From: a virus
Lineage: Duplodnaviria; Heunggongvirae; Uroviricota; Caudoviricetes
Strand: one strand, 5' to 3'
Length of the DNA: 33,479 bases
Virus record (IMG/VR): IMGVR_UViG_2627854066_000005
Location: 1 to 33,479 of that record
A model generated the notes under the pieces. The model saw nothing but the letters and a program-made list of their open reading frames with translations, made no database searches and was not told the origin of the DNA. Shown here piece by piece: positions 3,663-33,479 of this stretch. Every line of letters starts with the position of its first letter. The first letter of the stretch is position 1. Position numbers and translations under genes: made by a program.

Positions 3663-5865
3663 GACTCGGGGGCGTATTGCCCCCTCGCTAGCCCTGCCAA
3701 TATCTAAGCGCACCGGCGATACTTTCGTTGGTGCTTATCCCTGGAATGCTCCCCGCGCTGCCATTGGCCGTGACAGACCCCTTACACGTGCCGAATTCCG
3801 TCAGGTGCAAGGTGTTTTATACCGGATTGACCGCCTGCCTTTCTTTCTTAAGACGTTGTTTACTTCCCGTTATAACTTCATTCGCCGCACAAAGAGCCCG
3901 CTCGGGGCGCTCTATTTCCTGAAAAACACCTTTGAGCGGAAGCTGTTGCCGCGTCTTGAGCGCGTTAACGAGCTGTGCGGGATGAATGAATCTGCGTCGA
4001 TTGGTTTCTTGTCTGAGCATGACGAATATGCGCGCTTGCCTGATATGAATGACAAAGAGCTGAAAAAATTTGCGGCCATAATTGCCGCGCAGCTCTGGCG
4101 TAAATACGAGGAACTCAGCGACGAATGGGCTGAGGCATTCGGCGGTAAAGAGACCCTTTTCACCGATGAGGCGCAGGTGCACATATATGGTCAGGTGGCT
4201 GGTGTTGCACGCGCGTTCAACTTAACCCCGCTCTACTGGAAAAAATACCGTAAGGGTCAGATGACGATCCGCATGGCGTTTTCCGCTATTTCCCGTCTGA
4301 TAAAAGATGATTGGTGGGTTAACCAGCTCAAGGCGCAGCGTATGCGCTGGCGTGAGGCGCTGCTTATCGCTGCCGGTGAAGTCAACAAAGACCGTTCACC
4401 TTACGCCAGCAAAATGGCGATCCGCGAGGTTCACTCGCGCCGGCTGGCTAATCTCGAATACCTGAAATCCTGTGAGCTGGAAAACAAAGTTACCGGCGAA
4501 CGTATCGACCTCATCAGTAAAGTCATGGGGAGTATTTCAAACCCTGAAATACGCCGTATGGAGCTGATGAATACCATTGCCGGAATTGAACGCTATGCGG
4601 CCAGCGTTGGTGATGTGGGAATGTTTATCACGCTGACCACGCCGTCGAAGTATCACCCGACCCGACAGGTCGGCAAAGGTGACAGCAAAACGGTGCAGCT
4701 CAATCACGGCTGGAACGAAACCGCATTCACCCCTAAAAACGGCCAGCGCTATCTGTGCCGAATCTGGAGCCTGATGCGTACCGCTTTCAAAGATAACGAT
4801 TTGGAAGTGTATGGGATGCGCGTTGTCGAGCCGCACCACGACGGCACGCCACACTGGCATATGATGCTTTTTTGCAAACTCGGTCAGCGTAAAGCTATCA
4901 ACGAAATTATGCGTCGTTATGCCCTCAAAGAGGACGGACACGAAAAGGGCGCGGCAAAACAGCGCTTTGAGTCGCGTCACCTTAATCAGGGGGGCGCGGC
5001 GGGTTATATCGCCAAATACATTGCCAAAAATATCGACGGCTACGCGCTTGACGGTCAGCTCGATCACGATACCGGCAAACCTCTGAAAGATACGGCCGCA
5101 GCCGTAACCGCATGGGCGTCTACATGGCGTATCCCTCAGTTTAAACCGATTGGCCTCCCGACAATGGGCGCTTACCGCGAACTGCGTAAGCTGCCGCGCG
5201 GGGTGAGTATCGCCAGCGAGTTTGACGACCGTGTCGAGGCCGTCCGGGCTGCTGCAGATGAGGGGGAATTTGACCTGTACATCAGCGCGCAGGGTGGGGC
5301 AAACATGCCGCGTGATGCTCAGGTGGTCAGGGTCGCCCGTAAGGTGACGGATGAGGTAAACGAATACGAGGAGGATATCGAGAAAGTGGTCGGTATTTAT
5401 GCCCCTCATCTTGGGGCGAGCCGCGTACATGTAACCCGTACAGCGGAATGGCGCATAGTTCCAAAGGTTTTGGCCGTTGAGCCTTTGACCTTAAAAAGCG
5501 GCGCTGCCGCGCCTCGGAGTCCTGTCAATAACTGTGGAAAGCTCACCGACGGTGATACTCCAGTTATGACACCCACACCGTCTGAGCAAGCCGCAGCGGT
5601 GTTAAATCTGATTGAGCGCGGAGTTATCGGATGGAATGAGCCAGACGTCATGAAGGCGCTTAACGGTGCGTTAAGAGCTGGCATCCCTCGCAAAAATCGC
5701 CAGCAAAGAAGCAATGCGCTACTCAAAACGAGTGAGCAAGCTCCATCAGCCAGGATGACAAAACCAGAAAGGGATCGCGTGGCGAAAATTCGTTTCGATT
5801 TGGCTCAGGAGGGCATTACCCCGGAACGGTGGGAGCTCGAAGCGCTGGTGCGTGGGCAACGGTGA
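3652..5865 (+). CDS. A: Rolling-circle replication initiator A (HUH-type endonuclease)
   Basis: About 737-764 aa. Contains HUH-type motif VEPHHDGTPHWHMMLF and paired active-site Tyr motif GYIAKYIAK. Start uncertain: 3652 (MAVETRG) or 3571, the latter giving 764 aa versus 761 for P2 A. Confidence 0.85.
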   Translation: MAVETRGRIAPSLALPISKRTGDTFVGAYPWNAPRAAIGRDRPLTRAEFRQVQGVLYRIDRLPFFLKTLFTSRYNFIRRTKSPLGALYFLKNTFERKLLPRLERVNELCGMNESASIGFLSEHDEYARLPDMNDKELKKFAAIIAAQLWRKYEELSDEWAEAFGGKETLFTDEAQVHIYGQVAGVARAFNLTPLYWKKYRKGQMTIRMAFSAISRLIKDDWWVNQLKAQRMRWREALLIAAGEVNKDRSPYASKMAIREVHSRRLANLEYLKSCELENKVTGERIDLISKVMGSISNPEIRRMELMNTIAGIERYAASVGDVGMFITLTTPSKYHPTRQVGKGDSKTVQLNHGWNETAFTPKNGQRYLCRIWSLMRTAFKDNDLEVYGMRVVEPHHDGTPHWHMMLFCKLGQRKAINEIMRRYALKEDGHEKGAAKQRFESRHLNQGGAAGYIAKYIAKNIDGYALDGQLDHDTGKPLKDTAAAVTAWASTWRIPQFKPIGLPTMGAYRELRKLPRGVSIASEFDDRVEAVRAAADEGEFDLYISAQGGANMPRDAQVVRVARKVTDEVNEYEEDIEKVVGIYAPHLGASRVHVTRTAEWRIVPKVLAVEPLTLKSGAAAPRSPVNNCGKLTDGDTPVMTPTPSEQAAAVLNLIERGVIGWNEPDVMKALNGALRAGIPRKNRQQRSNALLKTSEQAPSARMTKPERDRVAKIRFDLAQEGITPERWELEALVRGQR

Positions 5866-5941
5866 TTTATGGCGATAAAAAATTCAAATACGCGGCTGCT
5901 GATGAGTGGCCGGGATTCTCAATTCAAGAGGAGTGGAAATA

Positions 5942-6406
5942 ATGAGCAAAATCCATGAGTTAAAAATTGCACCTGAGCATTTTAACGCTGTGATATCTCA
6001 GGAAAAACGTGCTGAATTTCGTCTCAATAACCGCGATTATTCTAGCGGTGATATTCTCGGGTTGCATGAATGGGAACCGGTAAACGGATATACCGGGAAA
6101 CGTGTATCAGTGAGGGTGACATACGTTACTGATTTATCTGAATGGGCGGAAAATTATGTGATGCTGAGTTTTCAGTTAATGATGCCAGATGTCAAGTGCG
6201 GTATGTCCCTAATGAACTGGAAAGAGTTAAGCGAGAAGGGGCTTGTTTTCAGAATTAATCACGAAATTCTACACCCGTTAGGGCTGGCTATTGGATTTGA
6301 AACACTTAACGGCGTTTCGGGTGGGGCTTATGTCGCTTGTGATGGTGTCTGGCAATATTCCGACAAGCTGGTCGCAGATGCTAAAAAAAATGGGTGGTTA
6401 AAATGA
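5942..6406 (+). CDS. Hypothetical protein with ASCH/DUF3850-like N-terminal region (cargo, tin/old position)
   Basis: ATG 5942 with RBS aagaggag. N-terminus ELKIAPEHFNAVISQEKRAEFRLNNRDYSSGDILGLHEWEP resembles DUF3850/ASCH (PUA-like) proteins, from memory only. About 42% GC versus about 55% backbone. Confidence 0.4.
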   Translation: MSKIHELKIAPEHFNAVISQEKRAEFRLNNRDYSSGDILGLHEWEPVNGYTGKRVSVRVTYVTDLSEWAENYVMLSFQLMMPDVKCGMSLMNWKELSEKGLVFRINHEILHPLGLAIGFETLNGVSGGAYVACDGVWQYSDKLVADAKKNGWLK

Positions 6407-6627
6407 GTCATATGCGAATGATGCCAGTGCCGCCCGTACATTCAACGCAAAACATTAAGCTGATGGCCGTCGTGCATCGCCTGCAACAAATTATGATTAA
6501 CGAGAATCTGACCCCTGACGAACTGGTCGGGTGTGCCGGTGTCGTCCGGGATAATCACCGCAAATACAGCGATATCAGCAATCCGAAAATTGAGGCGTTT
6601 CGGCCATCAAATATGGCGAAGCCATAG
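6394..6627 (+). CDS. Small hypothetical protein
   Basis: 77-aa ORF overlapping the upstream stop; weak RBS, no motif recognised. Confidence 0.25.
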   Translation: MVKMSHMRMMPVPPVHSTQNIKLMAVVHRLQQIMINENLTPDELVGCAGVVRDNHRKYSDISNPKIEAFRPSNMAKP

Positions 6628-7017: not shown

Positions 7018-8349
7018 ATGGTGATTAATGAAGTTAGACGGATAGGTAGTGGCGGTTTTGGTAATGTTGATTTAGTGCAAGATGTCCTTAGCGGAAAGCA
7101 ATTCGCTAGGAAAACATTTTCTATAAATCAAGCTCAACCGCTGCCTCCTGATTTGGCAGAGAATGTAAAAAAAAGATTTATAAGAGAGGCAAACGTACAG
7201 TATAGACTTACGCATAAAAATATTGTACCTGTCCTTTTTAAAGATCTAAATAGTAACCCTCCATCTTTCCTTATGCCAGTAGCAGCATCTAGCCTTGATA
7301 AAGATATTGCGCAAAGTAGAAACTTGAATGGATTATTTTTAAGAGCAATAATGGATATTTTGTCTGGACTCGAAGAATTGCACACGTTGCAAATTTATCA
7401 TCGTGATCTCAAACCACAAAATGTGCTTAGATTTGATTCAAGTGAAGGTCCATATTACGCTATTAGCGACTTTGGCTTGATGTCAGTAAAAGATACTCAA
7501 ATTTCAGCACTAACCCATACAGGTATGAAAATGGGTTCTGATTACTACACCGCACCTGAAATTGTTTCAGATCTTAGAAAAGCTAGTATTGCTTCAGATA
7601 TTTATTCTTTGGGGTGTATACTGCATGACTTTGTAGGCACGGATGAAAGAATTCCTTGTGGTGAAATTAATAATGATTCGAGCGCATATGCGCATATTTT
7701 ACGGGTTTGTACTCGTAGAGATCCTTCAAGAAGATTTCCAAGTGTTGCAGCATTAAGGGATGCAATTCTTAGTATTGATCCTTCTACAGTAATACATCTC
7801 TCTGCTGAGGTTGGAACATATACTACAGCATTAGATAGTGACGCCGGAATTAATGTTGAAACATGGAGGGAAATAATCAATTTCGTAGAGGATAATATTG
7901 GACAAGAAAACTCCAAGGTGATATTTCAGCGTCTAACTTTAAACAGGATTAATGAGATAATCGCTCATGATACCACGCTAGCTTGTCGTCTTGGTGAAGC
8001 ATATGGTCGTTGGGTTGCGGATGGAGTATTTTCATTCGAACAGTGTGATGGGATTTGCACTCGTCTCGAACAATTTTTACAACTTCACGATTTGAACTGT
8101 AAAGCCGAAATTATTATAGCTATGCTTCTTATGGGAACGTCGCATAATCGTTGGTATGTCGAGAGACGCTTCATGAGCGTGGCAGGGCACGACATGACTC
8201 CAGAACTGGCTAAAAGGCTTGCTTTGGAAATGAGCATACTTGAGGGTAGAATGTGTGCAGCGGTGAGTCATCTCCAAAGATCAATTGGTGCCACACCTGA
8301 TATGCTTCATCCTGAACTTTTCGCAATGATACAAAGAGTATGCCATTGA
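7018..8349 (+). CDS. Hanks-type (eukaryotic-like) Ser/Thr protein kinase with about 170-aa C-terminal domain of unknown function
   Basis: Gly-rich loop IGSGGFGNV (7042-7068); Lys in FARKTF; catalytic loop HRDLKPQN (HRD at 7399-7407); DFG (7468-7476); YTAPE. RBS aaggcaagggg upstream; AT-rich promoter-like region 6950-7017. About 35-38% GC. Confidence 0.8.
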   Translation: MVINEVRRIGSGGFGNVDLVQDVLSGKQFARKTFSINQAQPLPPDLAENVKKRFIREANVQYRLTHKNIVPVLFKDLNSNPPSFLMPVAASSLDKDIAQSRNLNGLFLRAIMDILSGLEELHTLQIYHRDLKPQNVLRFDSSEGPYYAISDFGLMSVKDTQISALTHTGMKMGSDYYTAPEIVSDLRKASIASDIYSLGCILHDFVGTDERIPCGEINNDSSAYAHILRVCTRRDPSRRFPSVAALRDAILSIDPSTVIHLSAEVGTYTTALDSDAGINVETWREIINFVEDNIGQENSKVIFQRLTLNRINEIIAHDTTLACRLGEAYGRWVADGVFSFEQCDGICTRLEQFLQLHDLNCKAEIIIAMLLMGTSHNRWYVERRFMSVAGHDMTPELAKRLALEMSILEGRMCAAVSHLQRSIGATPDMLHPELFAMIQRVCH

Positions 8350-9050
8350 TTAATAAATTTGCTTACACATCTCCGGGACCTAGAAGCCACAACCAAGACT
8401 CTATCTTGGTTGAGATTTTACCCAGCGCTGATTTGTTATGTGGCGTTGCGGATGGTGTCGGCGGGAATTTGGGGGGAGAAACAGCCTCTCAATTAGCACT
8501 GGACATTATTGCTGCGGCCATGCGTTCGGATAGTAGCATCTCTCTTCTCGAAGCCATAACCCGAGCTGATGAAGCGATCAAAGATGCTGCTCAGAAAGAT
8601 GGAAAATTGGCTGGAATGGCAAGTACTGTGACTGTAACAAAGCTTATCGGGAATAAATTGATAGGAGCCAATTGTGGAGATTCTCGGACTTATCTATTAA
8701 GAGGAAGTGGCGTCAAACAACTTTCCTATGATCACAGTGAAGTAGCTCGTCTACTACGTGAAGGTAAGCTGACGAAAGAGACTGCAGTTGATTACCCTCG
8801 TAAGAACATTCTTGATAGTGCCCTTGGTGCACACAAGCCTCTACAAGTCCATGAATTTGAATGTAATTTACAGATAGGTGATAGAATAGCTTTGCTATCT
8901 GACGGGGTTTCGTCAGTTGTGAGCAAAAAAGATTTCCGAGATCTTTCAGTGAAATATAATTCGTTAAATGAGTATGGTGCTAGTGTAATAGAGCTTGTTG
9001 AGAGTAGAGAGACTAGGGATAATTATTCATTGATTATTTTTGAAATTTAG
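8340..9050 (+). CDS. PP2C-family Ser/Thr protein phosphatase
   Basis: PP2C motifs GVADGVGG (8451-8465), CGDSRTYLL (GDSR at 8676-8687), LLSDGVS. ATG overlaps the kinase 3' end by 10 nt, suggesting translational coupling. Confidence 0.75.
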   Translation: MPLINKFAYTSPGPRSHNQDSILVEILPSADLLCGVADGVGGNLGGETASQLALDIIAAAMRSDSSISLLEAITRADEAIKDAAQKDGKLAGMASTVTVTKLIGNKLIGANCGDSRTYLLRGSGVKQLSYDHSEVARLLREGKLTKETAVDYPRKNILDSALGAHKPLQVHEFECNLQIGDRIALLSDGVSSVVSKKDFRDLSVKYNSLNEYGASVIELVESRETRDNYSLIIFEI

Positions 9051-16852: not shown

Positions 16853-17282
16853 CGCCGTACCACAGCTAAAAAACAACCCCGAAATGATGCGTATCTTTGC
16901 CGATGAGGGAAATATCGATGCGCGTCTCGCGGCCTCGCTGTCGCACGAAAAGAACTACACCCTGAATGTGATCGTCTGCGATTTTGTTGGCGACCCTGAC
17001 CTGATTTTTGTGCCGGTGGCGGCATGGCTGCGAGAGAACCAGCCGGATATCTGCACGCTGGATGAGGGGCGCAAAAAGGGCTATCGATTCCAGATGGATT
17101 TAAACGACGGGGATAATGTTGATATCAGTATCAGCCTGCAACTGACCGAGCGCACCCTCGTCAGGGACGAAAACGGCGCGCTGCACGTTAGCTACGCGCC
17201 TGAGCCTCCATTACCCGAGCCGATGACGCGACCGACTGAGCTGTATATCAATGGTGAGCTGGTGAGCAAATGGGATGAATGA
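16815..17282 (+). CDS. R: Tail completion protein R
   Basis: 155 aa, same length as P2 R; synteny after the lysis genes. Confidence 0.7.
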   Translation: MQKMKSLRQALTDAVPQLKNNPEMMRIFADEGNIDARLAASLSHEKNYTLNVIVCDFVGDPDLIFVPVAAWLRENQPDICTLDEGRKKGYRFQMDLNDGDNVDISISLQLTERTLVRDENGALHVSYAPEPPLPEPMTRPTELYINGELVSKWDE

Positions 17283-17721
17283 ATTTAAACCTTTTGATGA
17301 CAAACTGGCGGGACTGATTGCGGCAATATCACCGGCGGGTCGGCGCAAGCTGGCCGCTGAAATAGCAAAGCAAATGCGCAGATCGCAACAGCAACGCATC
17401 AAACAGCAAAAAGCGCCTGATGGCACGCCGTATCAGGCGCGAAAACGCCAGCCGCTCAGAGCGAAGAAAGGGCGTATTAAGCGGACGATGTTTCAGAAGT
17501 TGCGAACGAACCGCAACATGAAAGCCAGAGGCCGCGATGATGCAGCGGTGGTCGAGTTTACCGGCAAGGTGCAACGCATTGCTCAGATTCATCAGCTCGG
17601 ACTTAAAGACCGGCCAAACCCACATGCTCAGGACGTGCAATACCCAGAACGGCAGTTGCTTGGTGTTGACTTTAGAGACAATTTGTTGATTGAAAAATTG
17701 GTTATTGAACATCTAAATTGA
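17275..17721 (+). CDS. S: Virion morphogenesis / tail completion protein S
   Basis: 148 aa versus 150 for P2 S; basic middle region; synteny. Confidence 0.7.
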   Translation: MNEFKPFDDKLAGLIAAISPAGRRKLAAEIAKQMRRSQQQRIKQQKAPDGTPYQARKRQPLRAKKGRIKRTMFQKLRTNRNMKARGRDDAAVVEFTGKVQRIAQIHQLGLKDRPNPHAQDVQYPERQLLGVDFRDNLLIEKLVIEHLN

Positions 17722-17770
17722 CTATTTACGGTTGCAAGTCTCATAAGACGAATCCTAGCTTACCGACCTT

Positions 17771-17799
17771 TTGACCTTAATCATAAAAAATGGTAAATA
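17771..17799 (+). promoter_or_regulatory. Candidate sigma70 promoter for the DUF262 cargo operon
   Basis: TTGACC (17771-17776), 17-nt spacer, TAAATA (17794-17799), then about 50-nt leader with RBS aagga before ATG 17857. Confidence 0.35.
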
Positions 17800-17856
17800 T
17801 TGTTGTTGTCTGCTACCTCGTTGATTTTTTAAGCTTTTACTTACAAGGATTGAAGC

Positions 17857-18906
17857 ATGTCTAACGATGATAAAACATTGAATTTATTCCCCATAGATTA
17901 TCCATTTGAGACTTTATGTTCTAGGATGAAGTCCAATCCCATCAAACTAAAACTGAATCCAGACTTTCAAAGAAAGTACAAATGGGATCAGGACGGATGG
18001 CTGCGATCTTCAAAATTCATTGAATCTTGTTTAATGCGTATTCCTCTTCCATCTTGTTACTTTGCAGAAGATGATAGCGGCAATCATATTGTAATTGATG
18101 GTGTTCAGCGATTAACCACAATACAGAAATTTTTTGATGACGAGTTCGCTTTGGAGGGAATGACTACATTTAAAGAGCTTGAAGGGAAAAAGTTTTCTGA
18201 ATTAGGATCTCTACGTTCAGAGTTAGAGTCGACAACAATAAGATGCATTGTTCTAAGAAAAGAAAATCCCAAAAAATTAATAAGAGAGATATTTTCTAGA
18301 CTCAATCAGGGGGCAGTTAAACTTTCTGACCAAGAAATAAGACATGCGTTATATCCGGGAGGGTTTGATGAATTATTAGAAGAGTTAGGTAATATTGATG
18401 CCATTAAAAATTTTGGTTTGGCGGAAACAACTACAGTAAAAAGAGATAGTCGTGAGCCAGACGAACAAGTTTTGCGTTTTTTTGCATTTTATGAAGATAA
18501 CTTTTTTGATTACTTTGATAGCTCCTTGAAAGAATTCTTGGATGATCATATGGAAAAATTTTCAGACTTAAAAGATGATGAACTGAATATTATGAGGGAG
18601 AGATTCAAAACATCATTATCTAAGTGTGAAAAAATATTTGGTGAAGATGTATTTACAAACCCTACAGTTAGGAGAAAACGTAAAGGGTTAGTTCATTATG
18701 ACATTTTAATGCCTACAATTGGCAAGTTAAATGATGATATTGTAAATGAAAAGTCCGAACAAATACGGAATGCTTGGTTTACTCTTTGTTCAAGTGCTGA
18801 GTTCAAAAAAACTTTATCAGGTGGGCTACAGAATAAGAGTTCGGTGATGAAGCGTAGGGCTAGTTGGGTGGCACTTCTTAAGGAAGTTATTGATGGAAAA
18901 TACTGA
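17857..18906 (+). CDS. DUF262 (ParB-like / GmrSD N-terminal-like) domain protein
   Basis: 349 aa; N-terminal region with FQRKYKW and IDGVQRL (the DGQQR-type motif of DUF262); helical C-terminal region, no HNH/DUF1524 seen. About 33% GC; inserted between S and V, which are adjacent in P2. Confidence 0.65.
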   Translation: MSNDDKTLNLFPIDYPFETLCSRMKSNPIKLKLNPDFQRKYKWDQDGWLRSSKFIESCLMRIPLPSCYFAEDDSGNHIVIDGVQRLTTIQKFFDDEFALEGMTTFKELEGKKFSELGSLRSELESTTIRCIVLRKENPKKLIREIFSRLNQGAVKLSDQEIRHALYPGGFDELLEELGNIDAIKNFGLAETTTVKRDSREPDEQVLRFFAFYEDNFFDYFDSSLKEFLDDHMEKFSDLKDDELNIMRERFKTSLSKCEKIFGEDVFTNPTVRRKRKGLVHYDILMPTIGKLNDDIVNEKSEQIRNAWFTLCSSAEFKKTLSGGLQNKSSVMKRRASWVALLKEVIDGKY

Positions 18907-19471
18907 ATACTATGATGGATATCGTTCATTATTTTTATCCTTAAAAGAAATTATTAAGGAGACGGAGCAACAGGCTATCCTTGAGGAAAATGAATTCTTC
19001 AATAAGAACATTAATTTTTTTGTTAAATCGTATCTTATTACACTCTGCACTTATTTAGAGTCGTATTTGACTGAGGTTGCAACATGGCACTGCGATACCA
19101 TCAATCGCAGGCTTAAAGCAGCCTGCTTGCCACACAATTTTTTGCTTTGGCGAGTCAAAAAAGATGTTAAAGATAAGGAGTTGAAATATATAGATGCTGA
19201 TTTAAAGGTTGAGAAAAGTGAGGTGTCGGATAGCCTGTCTGGTAATCCTTACAAGACGATTAAGGCATTTTCTTATTTGGGTGTTAATCTTTTGAATTCG
19301 GCGGAATTTAATGCGAATAAGGATGTTGTGAATGCAGTGGTTGTAAAGAGAAATAACATTATTCATCATAACGACAATGCAAATGATATTAGTCTCACTG
19401 ACGTAAGTGGTTATGTAGATCTGTTTGTATCCTATATGGCCGCGATAGATAATATGGTTTGTGGAAAATAA
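18890..19471 (+). CDS. Hypothetical partner protein, possible HEPN-like (R-x4-H) motif
   Basis: 193 aa; overlaps the upstream gene by 17 nt (same operon); KRNNIIHHND fits the R-x4-H pattern of HEPN RNases, tentative. AT-rich. Confidence 0.45.
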   Translation: MMENTEYYDGYRSLFLSLKEIIKETEQQAILEENEFFNKNINFFVKSYLITLCTYLESYLTEVATWHCDTINRRLKAACLPHNFLLWRVKKDVKDKELKYIDADLKVEKSEVSDSLSGNPYKTIKAFSYLGVNLLNSAEFNANKDVVNAVVVKRNNIIHHNDNANDISLTDVSGYVDLFVSYMAAIDNMVCGK

Positions 19472-19734
19472 TGTTTTAATATTCGTGGGGCTGTTTGATA
19501 ATTTAGCCCCATATCTGCTTTGGTAAGGGTTCGGAAAATAATTTTATATCATGATGAAATGTCTATGAGATTTATTTCATTTCTAAGTTTTGCTATTTGA
19601 TAAATCCTTTATGTGGCTCTCATTAATCTAATGGGATGAATTATACTGATATTTTAAAGCTGATAATTGTTGTTTCATCTCCCATAAAACTCCACTTGAT
19701 TGCCACTAGCCTTTCCAGTCGGCATCCTTTCCAC

Positions 19735-20376
19735 ATGAATAATTTAAATTCTTTACAGGAAATCGCTCGGGCGATCCGCAACCTTATCCGCACCGGCATT
19801 GTGACCGACGTCGACCCCGTCGAGGGGCTTTGTCGTGTACAGACCGGCGGGATGCAAACCACCTGGCTTAACTGGCTGACCTGCCGCGCCGGCCGCTCGC
19901 GGGTGTGGTGGGCTCCTTCTGTTGGCGAGCAGGTGCTCATTCTTGCCATTGGTGGCGAGCTGGACACAGCCTTTGTGCTGCCCGGCATTTTCTCTGATGA
20001 CCATCCTGCGCCGTCGGCCTCGTCCGATGCGTTTCACGTCACTTTTCCTGACGGGGCGGTTATCGAGTACGAACCCGAAAACGGGGCGCTCACCGTATCC
20101 GGTATTAAAACCGCCGACGTTACCGCGTCGGAGTCCATTACCGCCATCGTGCCGGTGGTGCTGGTGAAAGCCGAAACCCGCATTACCCTCGATACTCCCG
20201 AGGTGGTGTGTACCAACAAGCTCATCACCGGCACGCTCGAAGTGAAAAAAGGCGGGACGATGTCGGGGAACATCGAGCACACCGAAGGGAAATTTACCTC
20301 AAACGGCGTGCAGGTCGATGCCCACGATCATGGTGGCGTGGAGCCGGGCGGAAACTGGACGAAGGGGGTCAAATGA
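19735..20376 (+). CDS. V: Baseplate spike / assembly protein V
   Basis: Start MNNLNSLQEIARAIRNLIRTG; ...WWAPSVGEQVLILAIGGELDTAFVLPGIF... resembles P2 V; 213 aa versus 211. Confidence 0.85.
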   Translation: MNNLNSLQEIARAIRNLIRTGIVTDVDPVEGLCRVQTGGMQTTWLNWLTCRAGRSRVWWAPSVGEQVLILAIGGELDTAFVLPGIFSDDHPAPSASSDAFHVTFPDGAVIEYEPENGALTVSGIKTADVTASESITAIVPVVLVKAETRITLDTPEVVCTNKLITGTLEVKKGGTMSGNIEHTEGKFTSNGVQVDAHDHGGVEPGGNWTKGVK

Positions 20377-31191: not shown

Positions 31192-31293
31192 GAAGAAGTT
31201 GGTAGGTGGAATCTGGGTACGATATTTGTTAATACTAGCTTGTTGTAACAAAAATTAATTCTGACCTAACAGTACATTACGGAAAACGTATCC

Positions 31294-31503
31294 ATGACTT
31301 TTGATGAATATATGCAAAAAACCAGAGAAATAAATGAGCAACTTCAAGAGATTTCTATGCTAACGGCAAATCAAGCACTAACAAATTGCGCAAACTCATC
31401 CAATCCCGGCTTTGTTGATCTGATGCGTCGTCATGCAGAATTGACAATGCGCTCGTTTAAGCTTACTGAAGAGATGATGAAACAGTTATCTATTGATAAC
31501 TAA
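31294..31503 (+). CDS. Small hypothetical protein (AT-rich cargo between ogr and the intron)
   Basis: 69-aa ORF, predicted helical, no motif recognised; about 33% GC. Confidence 0.3.
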   Translation: MTFDEYMQKTREINEQLQEISMLTANQALTNCANSSNPGFVDLMRRHAELTMRSFKLTEEMMKQLSIDN

Positions 31504-31608
31504 TAATCAAACACTAGGCCAAAAAGGTGTAAGAGCACTAGACACAATGATTGATACTCTTATTCTTTAAAGCAAATCAAAATTTTCTACCATTTTTTTT
31601 ATAAATAA

Positions 31609-31636: not shown

Positions 31637-33479
31637 GTGCGCCGGGCATGGCGCGTAGCGCCGTGACTGGCGCTGTTCTTCAACTGTGGTGGCTGAAGAA
31701 CGACTAAGAGGTGAAAGTCCTCCACACACCCGGTGAGGGGAAGTGTTAGCGGAAGGCAAGGGTGTTCATCGCGAGGTGAAATCTGAAGGAAGCCGGATGC
31801 AAAATGCTGGCCTGACGAACAGGAAGCGGTTAAGGCGGCGCAGCGGGGTAAGGTGGCATACATCACCAAAGCCCGATACTCACACGGAACGCTGTAACGT
31901 AGAGCCGACAGGCATAAGCAGGAAAGTCGCGCGAATTACCCCGGGAGAACTGCCGTCCTGCCAGTGTGCTACCGGCGTCGTAAGGTGCCGGGATGGGGCG
32001 GCAGAAGTCAGCCGACGCCGTAGTAGTGCTGCAAAACCGGCAGCATGAAGGGCCGAACATGATTAACCGTGATTAGGACATCCGAACCCGATGATGATTA
32101 ATGAAGCACAAGCGCAGGCAACTGCGGCCAGCGGCAGAGGAGACGGACGGTATCCGTCAGGGCTGCATGATGGCGCTGAAATCAGCACGGCGGCGGGTGG
32201 GCAAACGAAAGCGGAAGTGCCGCTGACGATGGAAGCGGTGATAACGAGAGAAAACCTGATGCTGGCTTATCAGCGCGTGGTGGAAAACAAAGGCGCGGCG
32301 GGGGTGGATAACCTCAGCGTGGCGGAGTTGAAACCGTGGCTGAAGAAGAACTGGCGCAGTGTCAGGCAGGCATTGATTGACGGAAACTACCAGCCGCGGG
32401 CAATACGCCGGATGGATATCCCGAAGCCGGATGGCGGCGTGAGAACCTTAGGCATCCCGACGGTGGTGGACAGGCTTATCCAGCAGGCGATTGCGCAGCA
32501 GTTAAGCGCCATCGTGGACAAAAGCTTCTCAGACTCCAGCTACGGCTTCCGGCCGGGGCGCAACGCATGGCAGGCGGTGCAACAGGCACAGCGTTACATA
32601 CGGGGCGGCAAACGGTGGGTGGTGGATATGGATCTGGAGAAGTTCATTGACCGGGTGGATCACAGACTCCTGATGACGCGTCTGGCCAGAACGATAAAGG
32701 ACAGGCGGGTGCTGAGACTGATACGCCGCTACCTGAAAGCGGAAATAGTCCGGGACGGGCAAAGGGAGAAACGGCAGGAGGGCATGCCGCAGGGCGGCCC
32801 GCTGTCGCCGTTACTGTCGAACATCCTGCTGGATGAACTGGATAAAGAACTGGAGCGTCGTTGACACAGCTTCTGCCGCTACGCAGACGACTGCAACATC
32901 AACGTAAGCAGCCGGAAAGCGGGCGACCATCTGCTGAAGAACATCAGGGCGTTCGTGGAGAACAAAATGAAACTGAAGGTGAATGAGAAGAAGAGCGCGG
33001 TGGCGCGCCCGTGGGAGCGGAAGTTCCTCGGGTACAGTGTGACATGGCACAAACAGGCGAAGCTGAAAATAGCCCTGACGAGCGTGAACAGGCTGAAGGA
33101 GAAAGTCCGCAGTCTGACCACGGGAAACCGGAGCAAATCAGTGAAAGCGACAATCAATGCCCTGACGCCAGTGCTGCGTGGATGGATAAGCTACTTCAGG
33201 CTGACGGAAGTCAGAGGAGTGCAGGAAGAGCTGGACGGCTGGATCAAACGGAAACTGCGGTGCCTGTTGTGGCGGCAGTGGAAGAGGCCGGGAACCCGGA
33301 CGAAGAACCTGCAAAGAGCGGGGCTGAGTAAGGACAGGGCGATGATCTCAGCGTACAACAACCACGGGCCATGGTGGAACTCAGGGTCAAGCCATATGAA
33401 TCAGGCGATAAAGAATGCGTGGTTCAGCAGGCAGGGTCTGATATCACTGCTGGAACAGCAGAGGCAGTTCCAGTGTTAA
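31637..33479 (+). mobile_element. Group II intron, 5' portion (domains I-IV with intron-encoded protein); 3' end beyond the window
   Basis: 5' GTGCG at 31637; about 590 nt of structured GC-rich RNA-like sequence before the RT ORF; the ORF has the YADD motif and the maturase domain-X motif LRGWISYF. Insertion just after a terminator is typical of class C (IIC) introns. Confidence 0.7.
32229..33479 (+). pseudogene. Group II intron reverse transcriptase/maturase, interrupted by in-frame TGA at 32862-32864
   Basis: ORFs 32091-32864 and 32955-33479 are in the same frame. Reading through the TGA gives ...LDKELERR*HSFCRYADDCNI..., continuous through the RT YADD motif (32880-32891). Likely start MEAVITRENLMLAYQRV at 32229. 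Natural stop TAA at 33477-33479. Confidence 0.7.

What the first reader, a model, noticed from the sequence alone, without database searches (positions are those of the whole stretch)
17722..19734. DUF262-type protein plus small partner inserted between tail genes S and V
S and V are adjacent in P2, but here a 2-kb AT-rich block lies between them with its own near-consensus promoter (TTGACC-17-TAAATA). Gene 1 carries the DUF262/ParB-like signature (FQRKYKW, IDGVQRL) found at the N-terminus of GmrSD, SspE and BrxU-type defence nucleases, but has no recognisable HNH/DUF1524 effector domain. Gene 2 overlaps it by 17 nt and has a possible HEPN-like R-x4-H motif (KRNNIIHH). I infer a split two-gene defence system in which an NTP-binding DUF262 sensor pairs with a separate effector. 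The 264-bp AT-rich gap between gene 2 and V may be an insertion scar and could also carry the V promoter.
Basis: partly seen in the sequence, partly recalled or inferred. Interest (0 to 1): 0.8.

Follow-up and report, generated by a model that had tools for sequence, protein, structure and literature searches.

The report
PD-T4-2-like DUF262 plus HEPN defence cassette
A P2/186-like prophage of E. coli carries, between tail genes S and V, a mobile two-gene cassette (a ParB-like DUF262 protein plus a HEPN RNase-fold protein) that is a divergent relative of the already validated anti-phage system PD-T4-2, so the finding is real but of a known kind.

Summary
An AT-rich block (GC 0.32-0.37, flanks 0.54-0.60) lies between gpS and gpV and encodes a 349-aa DUF262/GmrSD_N protein and an overlapping 192-aa protein.

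The two genes always travel together. In 7 of 7 other contexts examined, from Enterobacterales to Geoalkalibacter, a DUF262 gene sits directly upstream with an 8-14-nt overlap. The two proteins co-diverge (r = 0.98).

This architecture is already known. PD-T4-2 (Vassallo 2022) is a DUF262 + RiboL-PSP-HEPN pair validated against T4, and a HEPN H127A mutant was among the four domain mutants reported to abolish defence. The ParB-HEPN operon link was noted in 2013.

The window cassette is a distinct sequence subfamily:
- Protein A is 28% identical to PD-T4-2A and scores better on the Menshen NsnA model.
- Protein B misses all three PADLOC PD-T4-2_B models.

Two corrections. S and V are not adjacent in P2, where orf30 sits between them. 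This site also carries varied cargo in related phages.

Verdict: new member of a known kind, modest interest.

The parts
17275..17721 (+). gpS (virion morphogenesis / tail completion), last gene of the upstream late operon; left boundary of the cargo site
   Evidence: PF05069 7.8e-35; PGAP 'phage virion morphogenesis protein'
17771..17799 (+). Promoter-like element that travels with the cassette: -35 TTGACC, 17-nt spacer ending in TGG, -10 TAAATA
   Evidence: Pattern found once. DNA homology to the Yersinia and Lonsdalea cassettes begins at 17768-17769, right at the -35. TTTTGAC is invariant in 5 contexts and the TGnTAAAT region is conserved in 4 of 5. Activity is not tested.
17845..17849 (+). 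Shine-Dalgarno AAGGA inside a conserved TTTTACTTACAAGGATTGA leader
   Evidence: Near-invariant block immediately upstream of the ATG in 5 contexts
17857..18906 (+). Gene A: 349-aa ParB/Srx-fold DUF262 domain (about residues 21-166; FQR 37-39, D81-G82-V-Q84-R85) plus a helical C-terminal domain aligned to the NsnA C-terminal region. No HNH/DUF1524. Proposed NTP-dependent nucleic-acid sensor or regulator.
   Evidence: PF03235 4.1e-23. PADLOC NsnA 6.6e-80 and PD-T4-2_A 9.5e-43, both full length. 28% identity and E 4e-30 to authentic PD-T4-2A. Invariant D81, G82, Q84, R85 in 59 homologues. AF2 pLDDT 79, with weak Foldseek hits to ParB N-domains, Noc, KorB, SspE and sulfiredoxin.
18893..19471 (+). 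Gene B: 192-aa HEPN (RiboL-PSP family) protein with invariant K45, C52, E56 and K152-R153-N154-x3-H158-x-N160. Proposed RNase effector. Overlaps gene A by 14 nt.
19485..19512 (+). GC-rich hairpin (9-bp stem, 10-nt loop) 14 nt after the stop of gene B; possible weak terminator without a T tract
   Evidence: RNA fold -17.3 kcal/mol, z = -1.65, not significant. Not listed by the terminator scan.
19472..19664 (.). AT-rich spacer of unknown origin. Shared with the same-site relative L018 but not with cassettes in other contexts. IS903B lies somewhere in the gap between gene B and V (19472-19734) in two genomes; its exact position was not mapped.
   Evidence: Homology extents. No ORF of note, no Rfam hit, no flanking repeats. 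IS insertions.
19665..19734 (+). Ancestral V-operon late promoter region, with TGT(19671-19673)-N12-AAA(19686-19688) in the position of the Ogr/B activator site
   Evidence: Conserved with ENT4, GPEC1222, PRO_A-1374, 186 and P2. It aligns with P2's annotated 'activator binding site; activation of pV promoter'.
19735..20376 (+). gpV baseplate spike, first gene of the V late operon; right boundary of the cargo site
   Evidence: PF04717 + PF18715 + Apex; PGAP annotation

Best explanation
The block is a self-contained mobile two-gene anti-phage cassette of the PD-T4-2 type, carried as a moron by a P2/186-like prophage at the operon boundary between S and V.

Shown:
- It has its own conserved promoter-like element and ribosome-binding site.
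- Gene A is a ParB/Srx-fold DUF262 protein with an intact DGxQR NTP-binding motif and a helical, NsnA-C-like domain, and it has no nuclease domain.
- Gene B is a HEPN-fold protein with an invariant R-N-x3-H motif.
- The genes overlap by 14 nt, are always found together and co-diverge.

Inferred, by analogy with GmrSD/BrxU/SspE, Menshen NsnA, PD-T4-2 and HEPN RNases:
- A and B are made in fixed proportion from one transcript in the lysogen and form a complex in which the HEPN RNase is held inactive.
- On infection by a competing phage, A recognises phage DNA, possibly modified DNA as in T-even phages, in an NTP-dependent way and licenses B.
- B then cleaves RNA (tRNA, mRNA or rRNA) and stops phage production, probably at the cost of growth arrest of the infected cell.
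For: Domain and fold assignments:
- Gene A.
- Gene B.

Obligate pairing:
- A 346-349-aa GmrSD_N gene lies directly upstream of every B homologue examined. These are in Geoalkalibacter, P. aeruginosa, Lonsdalea, Neptunicella, a metagenomic P2-like phage, Yersinia and K. aerogenes.
- Pairwise identities of A and B across 8 loci correlate at r = 0.98.

Mobility and context:
- The same promoter-plus-two-gene unit (window ~17768-19452) sits in different prophage cargo sites and in integrase/TA islands.
- The cassette is present in only 30 of 5426 complete E. coli genomes.
- The S-V site holds other cargo in relatives: P2 orf30, a PIN_12 protein in ENT4, and a DUF4238 protein plus an 8xMP membrane protein in another E. 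coli prophage.

Precedent:
- PD-T4-2 is DUF262 + HEPN_RiboL-PSP. It protects against T4 when cloned with its native promoter and in its native strain ECOR65.
- The PD-T4-2B H127A plasmid is one of four site-directed domain mutants, and the paper states that all four residues were essential to protection (PMC9519451).
- Authentic PD-T4-2B also passes the PF18735 threshold.
- Its invariant K-x6-C-x3-E and R-x4-H positions correspond to those of the window family.
- The RiboL-PSP-HEPN 'operon with ParB' association was recorded in 2013 (PMC3710099).
Against: - No experiment exists for this subfamily.
- Sequence kinship to the validated system is remote. A is 28% identical. B is not alignable by BLASTP, and profile-profile comparison gives only a local match (hhalign E 0.005, probability 7%).
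- PADLOC's three PD-T4-2_B models miss gene B, and gene A scores higher on the Menshen NsnA model than on PD-T4-2_A.
- An A-B complex, the trigger and the RNA target are all unshown.
- The text available to me does not say whether PD-T4-2 acts by abortive infection or by direct immunity.
- The A model is only moderately confident (pLDDT 79) and its fold matches are weak (E 0.04-0.5).
Confidence: 0.72

Rival explanations
1. It is a toxin-antitoxin-type addiction module. B is a constitutively toxic HEPN RNase and A is its antitoxin. Its main role is to stabilise the prophage or island rather than to defend against phages.
For: - HEPN toxins of HEPN-MNT TA systems are the closest structural matches to B.
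- The overlapping two-gene layout is TA-like.
- Several homologous cassettes sit next to ParE/ParD-type TA pairs in integrase islands.
Against: - The partner is not an MNT nucleotidyltransferase. It is a 349-aa DUF262 protein that is more conserved than B (mean column identity 74% against 57%).
- The homologous architecture PD-T4-2 is a demonstrated anti-phage system.
- In E. coli 5CRE51, ISKpn26 interrupts gene A near codon 22 while B stays intact and the strain is viable. Polarity on B could explain this.
- TA behaviour and defence are not mutually exclusive.
Confidence: 0.12
2. The roles are reversed, or the target is DNA. The ParB-like DUF262 protein is itself the nuclease or nickase acting on phage DNA, as a type IV-restriction-like activity. 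The HEPN protein is a regulatory or RNA-binding subunit.
For: - Anantharaman et al. 2013 treat ParB-like domains as DNase domains of R-M-like systems.
- DUF262 proteins in GmrSD, BrxU and SspE belong to DNA-targeting systems.
Against: - In those systems cleavage is done by the DUF1524 His-Me finger, which is absent here.
- Gene B keeps a fully invariant catalytic R-N-x3-H.
- The equivalent His mutant of PD-T4-2B (H127A) is among the mutants reported to abolish defence.
Confidence: 0.08
3. The genes serve the phage's own lytic cycle, for example late-gene regulation or tail/baseplate assembly, because of where they sit among the tail genes.
For: - The genes lie between two essential late operons.
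- They share the orientation of those operons.
Against: - They are absent from most relatives. Phage 186 and PSP3 have only 69 bp and about 115 bp of unmatched sequence at this site.
- The base composition is foreign.
- They have their own conserved promoter.
- The same cassette occurs outside phages and at other prophage positions.
Confidence: 0.03

Closest known systems
PD-T4-2 (Vassallo et al. 2022, Nat Microbiol; E. coli ECOR65; PADLOC PD-T4-2_A/_B)
   Same: - Two co-directional adjacent genes.
- A is DUF262 (PF03235) plus a helical C-terminal domain, without DUF1524.
- B is a small RiboL-PSP-family HEPN (PF18735) with R-x4-H.
- Both are carried by P2/P4-type mobile elements in E. coli.
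- The invariant K..C...E and R-x4-H positions correspond.
   Different: - A is only 28% identical and lacks the ~20-residue acidic N-terminal extension.
- B is 192 aa against 167 aa and is not alignable outside the motif helices. It misses all three PD-T4-2_B HMMs, whereas the authentic B scores 213 bits.
- The genes overlap by 14 nt here but are separated by 4 nt in PD-T4-2.
- PD-T4-2 sits in the psu-int hotspot of a P4-like satellite in the identical copy I recovered. This cassette sits at the S-V junction of a P2/186-like phage.
- This subfamily is untested experimentally.
Menshen (NsnABC; Millman et al. 2022; Li et al. 2025 NAR)
   Same: Gene A is a full-length match to the NsnA model (6.6e-80), that is ParB-DUF262 plus the C-terminal region called ParBDB. 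In Menshen that protein is proposed to be the DNA sensor coupled to an RNase effector.
   Different: There is no NsnB ABC-ATPase and no NsnC inPIN-nuclease. The only partner is a HEPN protein, so the proposed ATPase transducer step is missing.
GmrSD / BrxU / SspE (type IV restriction-like DUF262-DUF1524 enzymes)
   Same: An N-terminal DUF262 NTPase-type domain with a DGxQR motif; weak fold resemblance to SspE.
   Different: No fused DUF1524 His-Me nuclease. The effector is a separate HEPN (RNase-type) protein, so RNA rather than DNA is the likely target.
HEPN-MNT (HepT-MntA) toxin-antitoxin systems
   Different: The partner is not a nucleotidyltransferase antitoxin, B is longer (192 aa against ~130-140 aa), and the gene order and partner family differ.

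Membership tests
PD-T4-2 | Two adjacent co-directional genes with the DUF262 gene upstream of the HEPN gene | tested here: met
   17857-18906 and 18893-19471, both on the + strand. The same order is seen in 7 other contexts.
PD-T4-2 | Component A carries DUF262 (PF03235) and lacks DUF1524 | tested here: met
   PF03235 4.1e-23 and no other Pfam hit at E<=1. Authentic PD-T4-2A gives the same result.
PD-T4-2 | Component B is a RiboL-PSP-type HEPN with a catalytic R-x4-H | tested here: met
PD-T4-2 | A matches the PADLOC PD-T4-2_A model as its best hit | tested here: not met
   A matches PD-T4-2_A at 144.6 bits but NsnA at 267.2 bits. Authentic A scores 538 against 197.
PD-T4-2 | B matches a PADLOC PD-T4-2_B model | tested here: not met
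   No PADLOC hit at E<=1. Authentic B hits PDLC04028, PDLC04030 and PDLC04029 at 213, 126 and 111 bits. Reciprocal profile searches give 14 bits or less.
PD-T4-2 | Protects against phage (T4/T-even) and needs the HEPN histidine | not testable with these tools
   Reported only for the ECOR65 system (PMC9519451).
Menshen (NsnABC) | NsnA-like ParB-DUF262 + ParBDB protein | tested here: met
   NsnA HMM 6.6e-80, aligned over 15-345 of the protein and 51-383 of 385 model positions
Menshen (NsnABC) | Adjacent NsnB ABC-ATPase and NsnC inPIN-nuclease genes | tested here: not met
   Only two ORFs lie between gpS and gpV. Homologous loci also lack an ATPase neighbour.
GmrSD / BrxU / SspE | DUF262 fused to a DUF1524 His-Me (HNH) nuclease | tested here: not met
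   No DUF1524 hit. The C-terminal half is all-helical in the model. SspE/HEC-05/06-type models match only the N-terminal ~60 residues.
HEPN-MNT toxin-antitoxin | HEPN toxin paired with an MNT nucleotidyltransferase antitoxin | tested here: not met
   The partner is DUF262, and no nucleotidyltransferase gene is in the block.

The most novel reading that the evidence does not exclude
This cassette may define a separate defence family rather than a plain PD-T4-2 orthologue. In it a Menshen-type NsnA sensor is wired directly to a HEPN RNase with no ATPase transducer. Current PADLOC models do not call it. It could respond to a different trigger or phage range than PD-T4-2. Its position would mark the S-V operon boundary of P2/186-like phages as a further, largely uncatalogued defence-cargo hotspot, given P2 orf30, a PIN_12 protein, a DUF4238 + 8xMP pair and this cassette.
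Probability: 0.25. Interest if true: 0.45.

Novelty: new member of a known kind. Interest (0 to 1): 0.3.

Why it matters
- It shows that a DUF262 + HEPN pair invisible to PADLOC's PD-T4-2 models is a conserved, mobile unit spread across Proteobacteria. It is rare in E. coli (30 of 5426 complete genomes). Defence annotation therefore under-counts this class.
- It gives a compact natural comparison for how ParB-like DUF262 sensors couple to effectors. The same NsnA-like sensor works here with a lone HEPN protein, but in Menshen with an ATPase plus a nuclease.
- It flags the S-V junction of P2/186-like phages as a variable cargo site worth including in hotspot surveys.
- None of this overturns current understanding.

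Tried and rejected
- Megablast of the block and tblastn of gene B against 50,697 phage records found nothing. tblastn of gene A found only 26-34% identical DUF262 proteins.
- Two of those, in Peduovirus P24B2 and Klebsiella phage ST16-OXA48phi5.4, are further DUF262 + HEPN pairs at other hotspots. They are not the same family.
- Distant blastn in E. coli genomes found no intermediate relatives, only the 30 near-identical copies.
- I recovered the authentic PD-T4-2 sequence from the lambda-red primers in Vassallo Table S8. Direct BLASTP, profile-sequence, profile-profile and reciprocal HMM comparisons of the B proteins gave only marginal local similarity.
- The exhaustive profile search of 1.84 billion representatives returned a small, sharply bounded B family (151 hits at E<=0.001, none fused to another domain). 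It did not bridge to PD-T4-2B.
- No Rfam family, no flanking direct repeats or att-like scar, no convincing terminator and no small ORF was found in the gap.
- A concatenated S+V probe was too divergent at the DNA level to quantify how often the S-V site is occupied in E. coli.
- I considered Menshen, GmrSD/BrxU/SspE and HEPN-MNT membership. I rejected each because a defining partner or domain is absent.

Full report
WHAT IS THERE

The window is a P2/186-like prophage integrated between yegR and yegQ. The 17600-19800 stretch is 100% identical to E. coli KV7.

GC content drops to 0.32-0.37 across 17601-19600, against 0.54-0.60 on both sides. The block lies between gpS (17275-17721, PF05069) and gpV (19735-20376, PF04717/PF18715). 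It holds exactly two genes.

Gene A is 17857-18906 (349 aa). Gene B is best started at ATG 18893 (192 aa), as in PGAP and in all homologues, which gives a 14-nt overlap.

GENE A

- It matches PF03235 (GmrSD_N/DUF262) at 4.1e-23 and nothing else in Pfam, so there is no DUF1524/HNH domain.
- In PADLOC it aligns end to end with the Menshen NsnA model (6.6e-80, 267 bits). It aligns less well with PD-T4-2_A (9.5e-43, 145 bits).
- In 59 homologues F37-Q38-R39 and D81, G82, Q84, R85 (the DGxQR NTP motif) are invariant.
- The AlphaFold model (pLDDT 79) has an alpha/beta N-terminal domain followed by an all-helical C-terminal half.
- Its weak Foldseek matches are ParB N-domains (including CDP-bound ParB), Noc, KorB, SspE and sulfiredoxin. 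None is a nuclease.

GENE B

- It matches PF18735 (HEPN_RiboL-PSP) at 1e-17, 65 bits against a 28.4-bit threshold.
- Its model is confident (pLDDT 93) and all-helical.
- Across 96 family members K152-R153-N154-x3-H158-x-N160 and K45, C52, E56 are invariant.

THE TWO GENES ARE ONE UNIT

Every B homologue whose contig I fetched has a 346-349-aa GmrSD_N gene immediately upstream, overlapping by 8-14 nt. The contexts were:
- Geoalkalibacter;
- P. aeruginosa, next to a filamentous-prophage-like gene set;
- Lonsdalea;
- Neptunicella;
- a metagenomic P2-like phage with the cassette at the same S-V site;
- Yersinia enterocolitica, between the integrase and the end of a 186-like prophage;
- Klebsiella aerogenes, at the edge of another prophage.

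Pairwise identities of A and B over eight loci correlate at r = 0.98, and B diverges faster. The points fall into two clusters, so this mainly shows co-inheritance.

DNA homology to the Yersinia and Lonsdalea copies begins at window 17768-17769, exactly at the -35 hexamer, and ends inside the 3' end of gene B.

The TTTTGAC -35 is invariant in all five contexts aligned. The TGnTAAAT -10 region is conserved in four of the five. The leader TTTTACTTACAAGGATTGA is near-invariant.

The mobile unit is therefore promoter plus two genes. This conservation is better support for the promoter than its match to consensus, which is 5/6 at -35 but only 3/6 at -10. The generic promoter scan did not list it.

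THE SITE

In P2 the S-V interval is 940 bp and holds a terminator, the nonessential orf30 on the opposite strand, and the annotated activator-binding site for pV. Phage 186 has 69 bp there.

In closer relatives of this prophage the same interval holds different cargo:
- a 354-aa PIN_12 protein in Enterobacter phage ENT4;
- a 328-aa hypothetical protein in E. coli GPEC1222;
- a DUF4238 protein plus an 8xMP/RipA membrane protein in E. coli PRO_A-1374.

The last ~70 bp before V (19665-19734) is conserved among these phages and aligns with P2's activator site. It carries TGT-N12-AAA here and TGT-N12-ACA in PRO_A-1374. The cassette therefore sits between the end of the O-operon and the V late promoter.

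The ~195 bp between gene B and that promoter is of unknown origin. I found no flanking repeats, Rfam hits, convincing terminator or small ORFs there.

Published surveys name the gpA-portal (old/tin) and Z/fun hotspots. [quoted passage not shown] A 2026 preprint mentions defence loci 'within the late genes' without naming this junction in its text.

COMPARISON WITH KNOWN SYSTEMS

PD-T4-2 (Vassallo et al. 2022) is listed as 'DUF262, HEPN'. By HHpred its A protein matches PF03235 and its B protein matches PF18735.
- It protected against T4 when cloned.
- Deleting it from ECOR65 restored T4 plaquing.
- A PD-T4-2B H127A plasmid is among the four site-directed mutants that the paper reports as essential to protection.

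I recovered an identical copy from the paper's lambda-red primers, in a P4-like satellite at ssrA in E. coli 2009C-3133. The comparison gave:
- Window A is 28% identical to PD-T4-2A (E 4e-30).
- The B proteins are not alignable by BLASTP.
- Authentic A and B score 538 and 213 bits on their PADLOC models. Window A scores 145 bits and window B scores nothing.
- Profile-profile and reciprocal HMM comparisons of the B families give only a local match over the helix carrying the shared invariant K..C...E.
- Both B proteins pass the PF18735 threshold.

An exhaustive profile search shows the window's B family is small and discrete. It has 151 representatives at E<=0.001 and none is fused to another domain.

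Anantharaman et al. 2013 already listed RiboL-PSP-HEPN as occurring 'in operon with ParB'.

Menshen shares the NsnA-type sensor but needs NsnB and NsnC, which are absent here. GmrSD, BrxU and SspE need a fused DUF1524 domain, which is absent. HEPN-MNT systems need an MNT partner, which is absent.

MECHANISM

Shown: the domain identities, the intact catalytic and NTP-binding motifs, obligate pairing, the overlapping coding regions and an own conserved promoter.

Inferred: A is an NTP-dependent nucleic-acid sensor or regulator, and B is the RNase effector that A keeps inactive until infection. The outcome would be RNA cleavage and a block to phage production.

The main rival is a TA-like addiction role, which is not exclusive of defence. 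In strain 5CRE51, ISKpn26 splits gene A near codon 22 and leaves B intact. This argues weakly against B being constitutively toxic, although polarity could explain it.

VERDICT

The kind of system is already known and validated. This is a divergent, currently un-called subfamily of the PD-T4-2-type DUF262 + HEPN class, at a cargo site that P2 itself uses for orf30.

Noticed in passing
window 7018-9050 (also 5906-6406): The classical gpA-portal hotspot of this prophage holds a Ser/Thr kinase (443 aa). It matches Pkinase at 1e-28 and the PADLOC mad6 and PD-T4-6 models at about 1e-32. It overlaps a PP2C phosphatase (236 aa). A DUF3850/ASCH protein lies just upstream. This is probably a second defence-type cargo in the same prophage.
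   Followed up: partly
S-V interval in relatives: L017 (P2) 898-1767; L013 (ENT4) 972-2036; L015 2583-3569; L016 1815-3873: The S-V junction is a variable cargo site. P2 carries orf30 there (no Pfam hit). ENT4 carries a PIN_12 protein. E. coli GPEC1222 carries a 328-aa hypothetical protein. E. coli PRO_A-1374 carries a DUF4238 protein plus an 8xMP/RipA octameric membrane protein. None hits PADLOC. The hotspot papers I read do not name this junction.
   Followed up: partly
L025 (E. coli 5CRE51) ~670-1865; H2/H3 genomes (2024CK-00535, strain 148): IS elements have landed in the cassette. ISKpn26 interrupts gene A at about window 17921-17925 (codon ~22) and leaves gene B intact. IS903B is inserted in the gap downstream of gene B in two other genomes.
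   Followed up: partly
L009 140-2015 (Peduovirus P24B2); L010 2387-4290 (Klebsiella phage ST16-OXA48phi5.4): Two other Peduoviridae carry different DUF262 + HEPN pairs (381+239 aa and 407+220 aa; HEPN_MAE_28990/RiboL-PSP). One is at the gpA-portal hotspot and one is between tail-fibre and tail genes. Neither B protein hits the PADLOC PD-T4-2_B models.
   Followed up: partly
L003-L005 (P. aeruginosa) 4968-6588 and downstream: The P. aeruginosa copy of the cassette lies directly next to genes typical of a filamentous (Pf-like) prophage: Zot, DUF2523 and DUF5447.
   Followed up: no
L011 1-8845 (E. coli 2009C-3133): A copy whose two ends exactly match the lambda-red primers designed for PD-T4-2 sits in the psu-integrase hotspot of a P4-like satellite integrated at ssrA. 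PGAP starts its DUF262 gene 33 nt upstream of the start used by Vassallo et al.
   Followed up: partly
window ~32260-33479 and 31200-31600: Beyond the prophage's right end the KV7 annotation shows a fragmented group II intron reverse transcriptase/maturase (pseudogene). A short AT-rich stretch (GC 0.345) with a 69-aa hypothetical gene lies just after the ogr-like regulator.
   Followed up: no
window 19463-19478 and 19533-19548: A 16-nt imperfect direct repeat (GGAAAATAATGTTTTA / GGAAAATAATTTTATA) spans the stop codon of gene B and recurs 70 nt downstream. It could be a recombination remnant or chance in AT-rich DNA.
   Followed up: no
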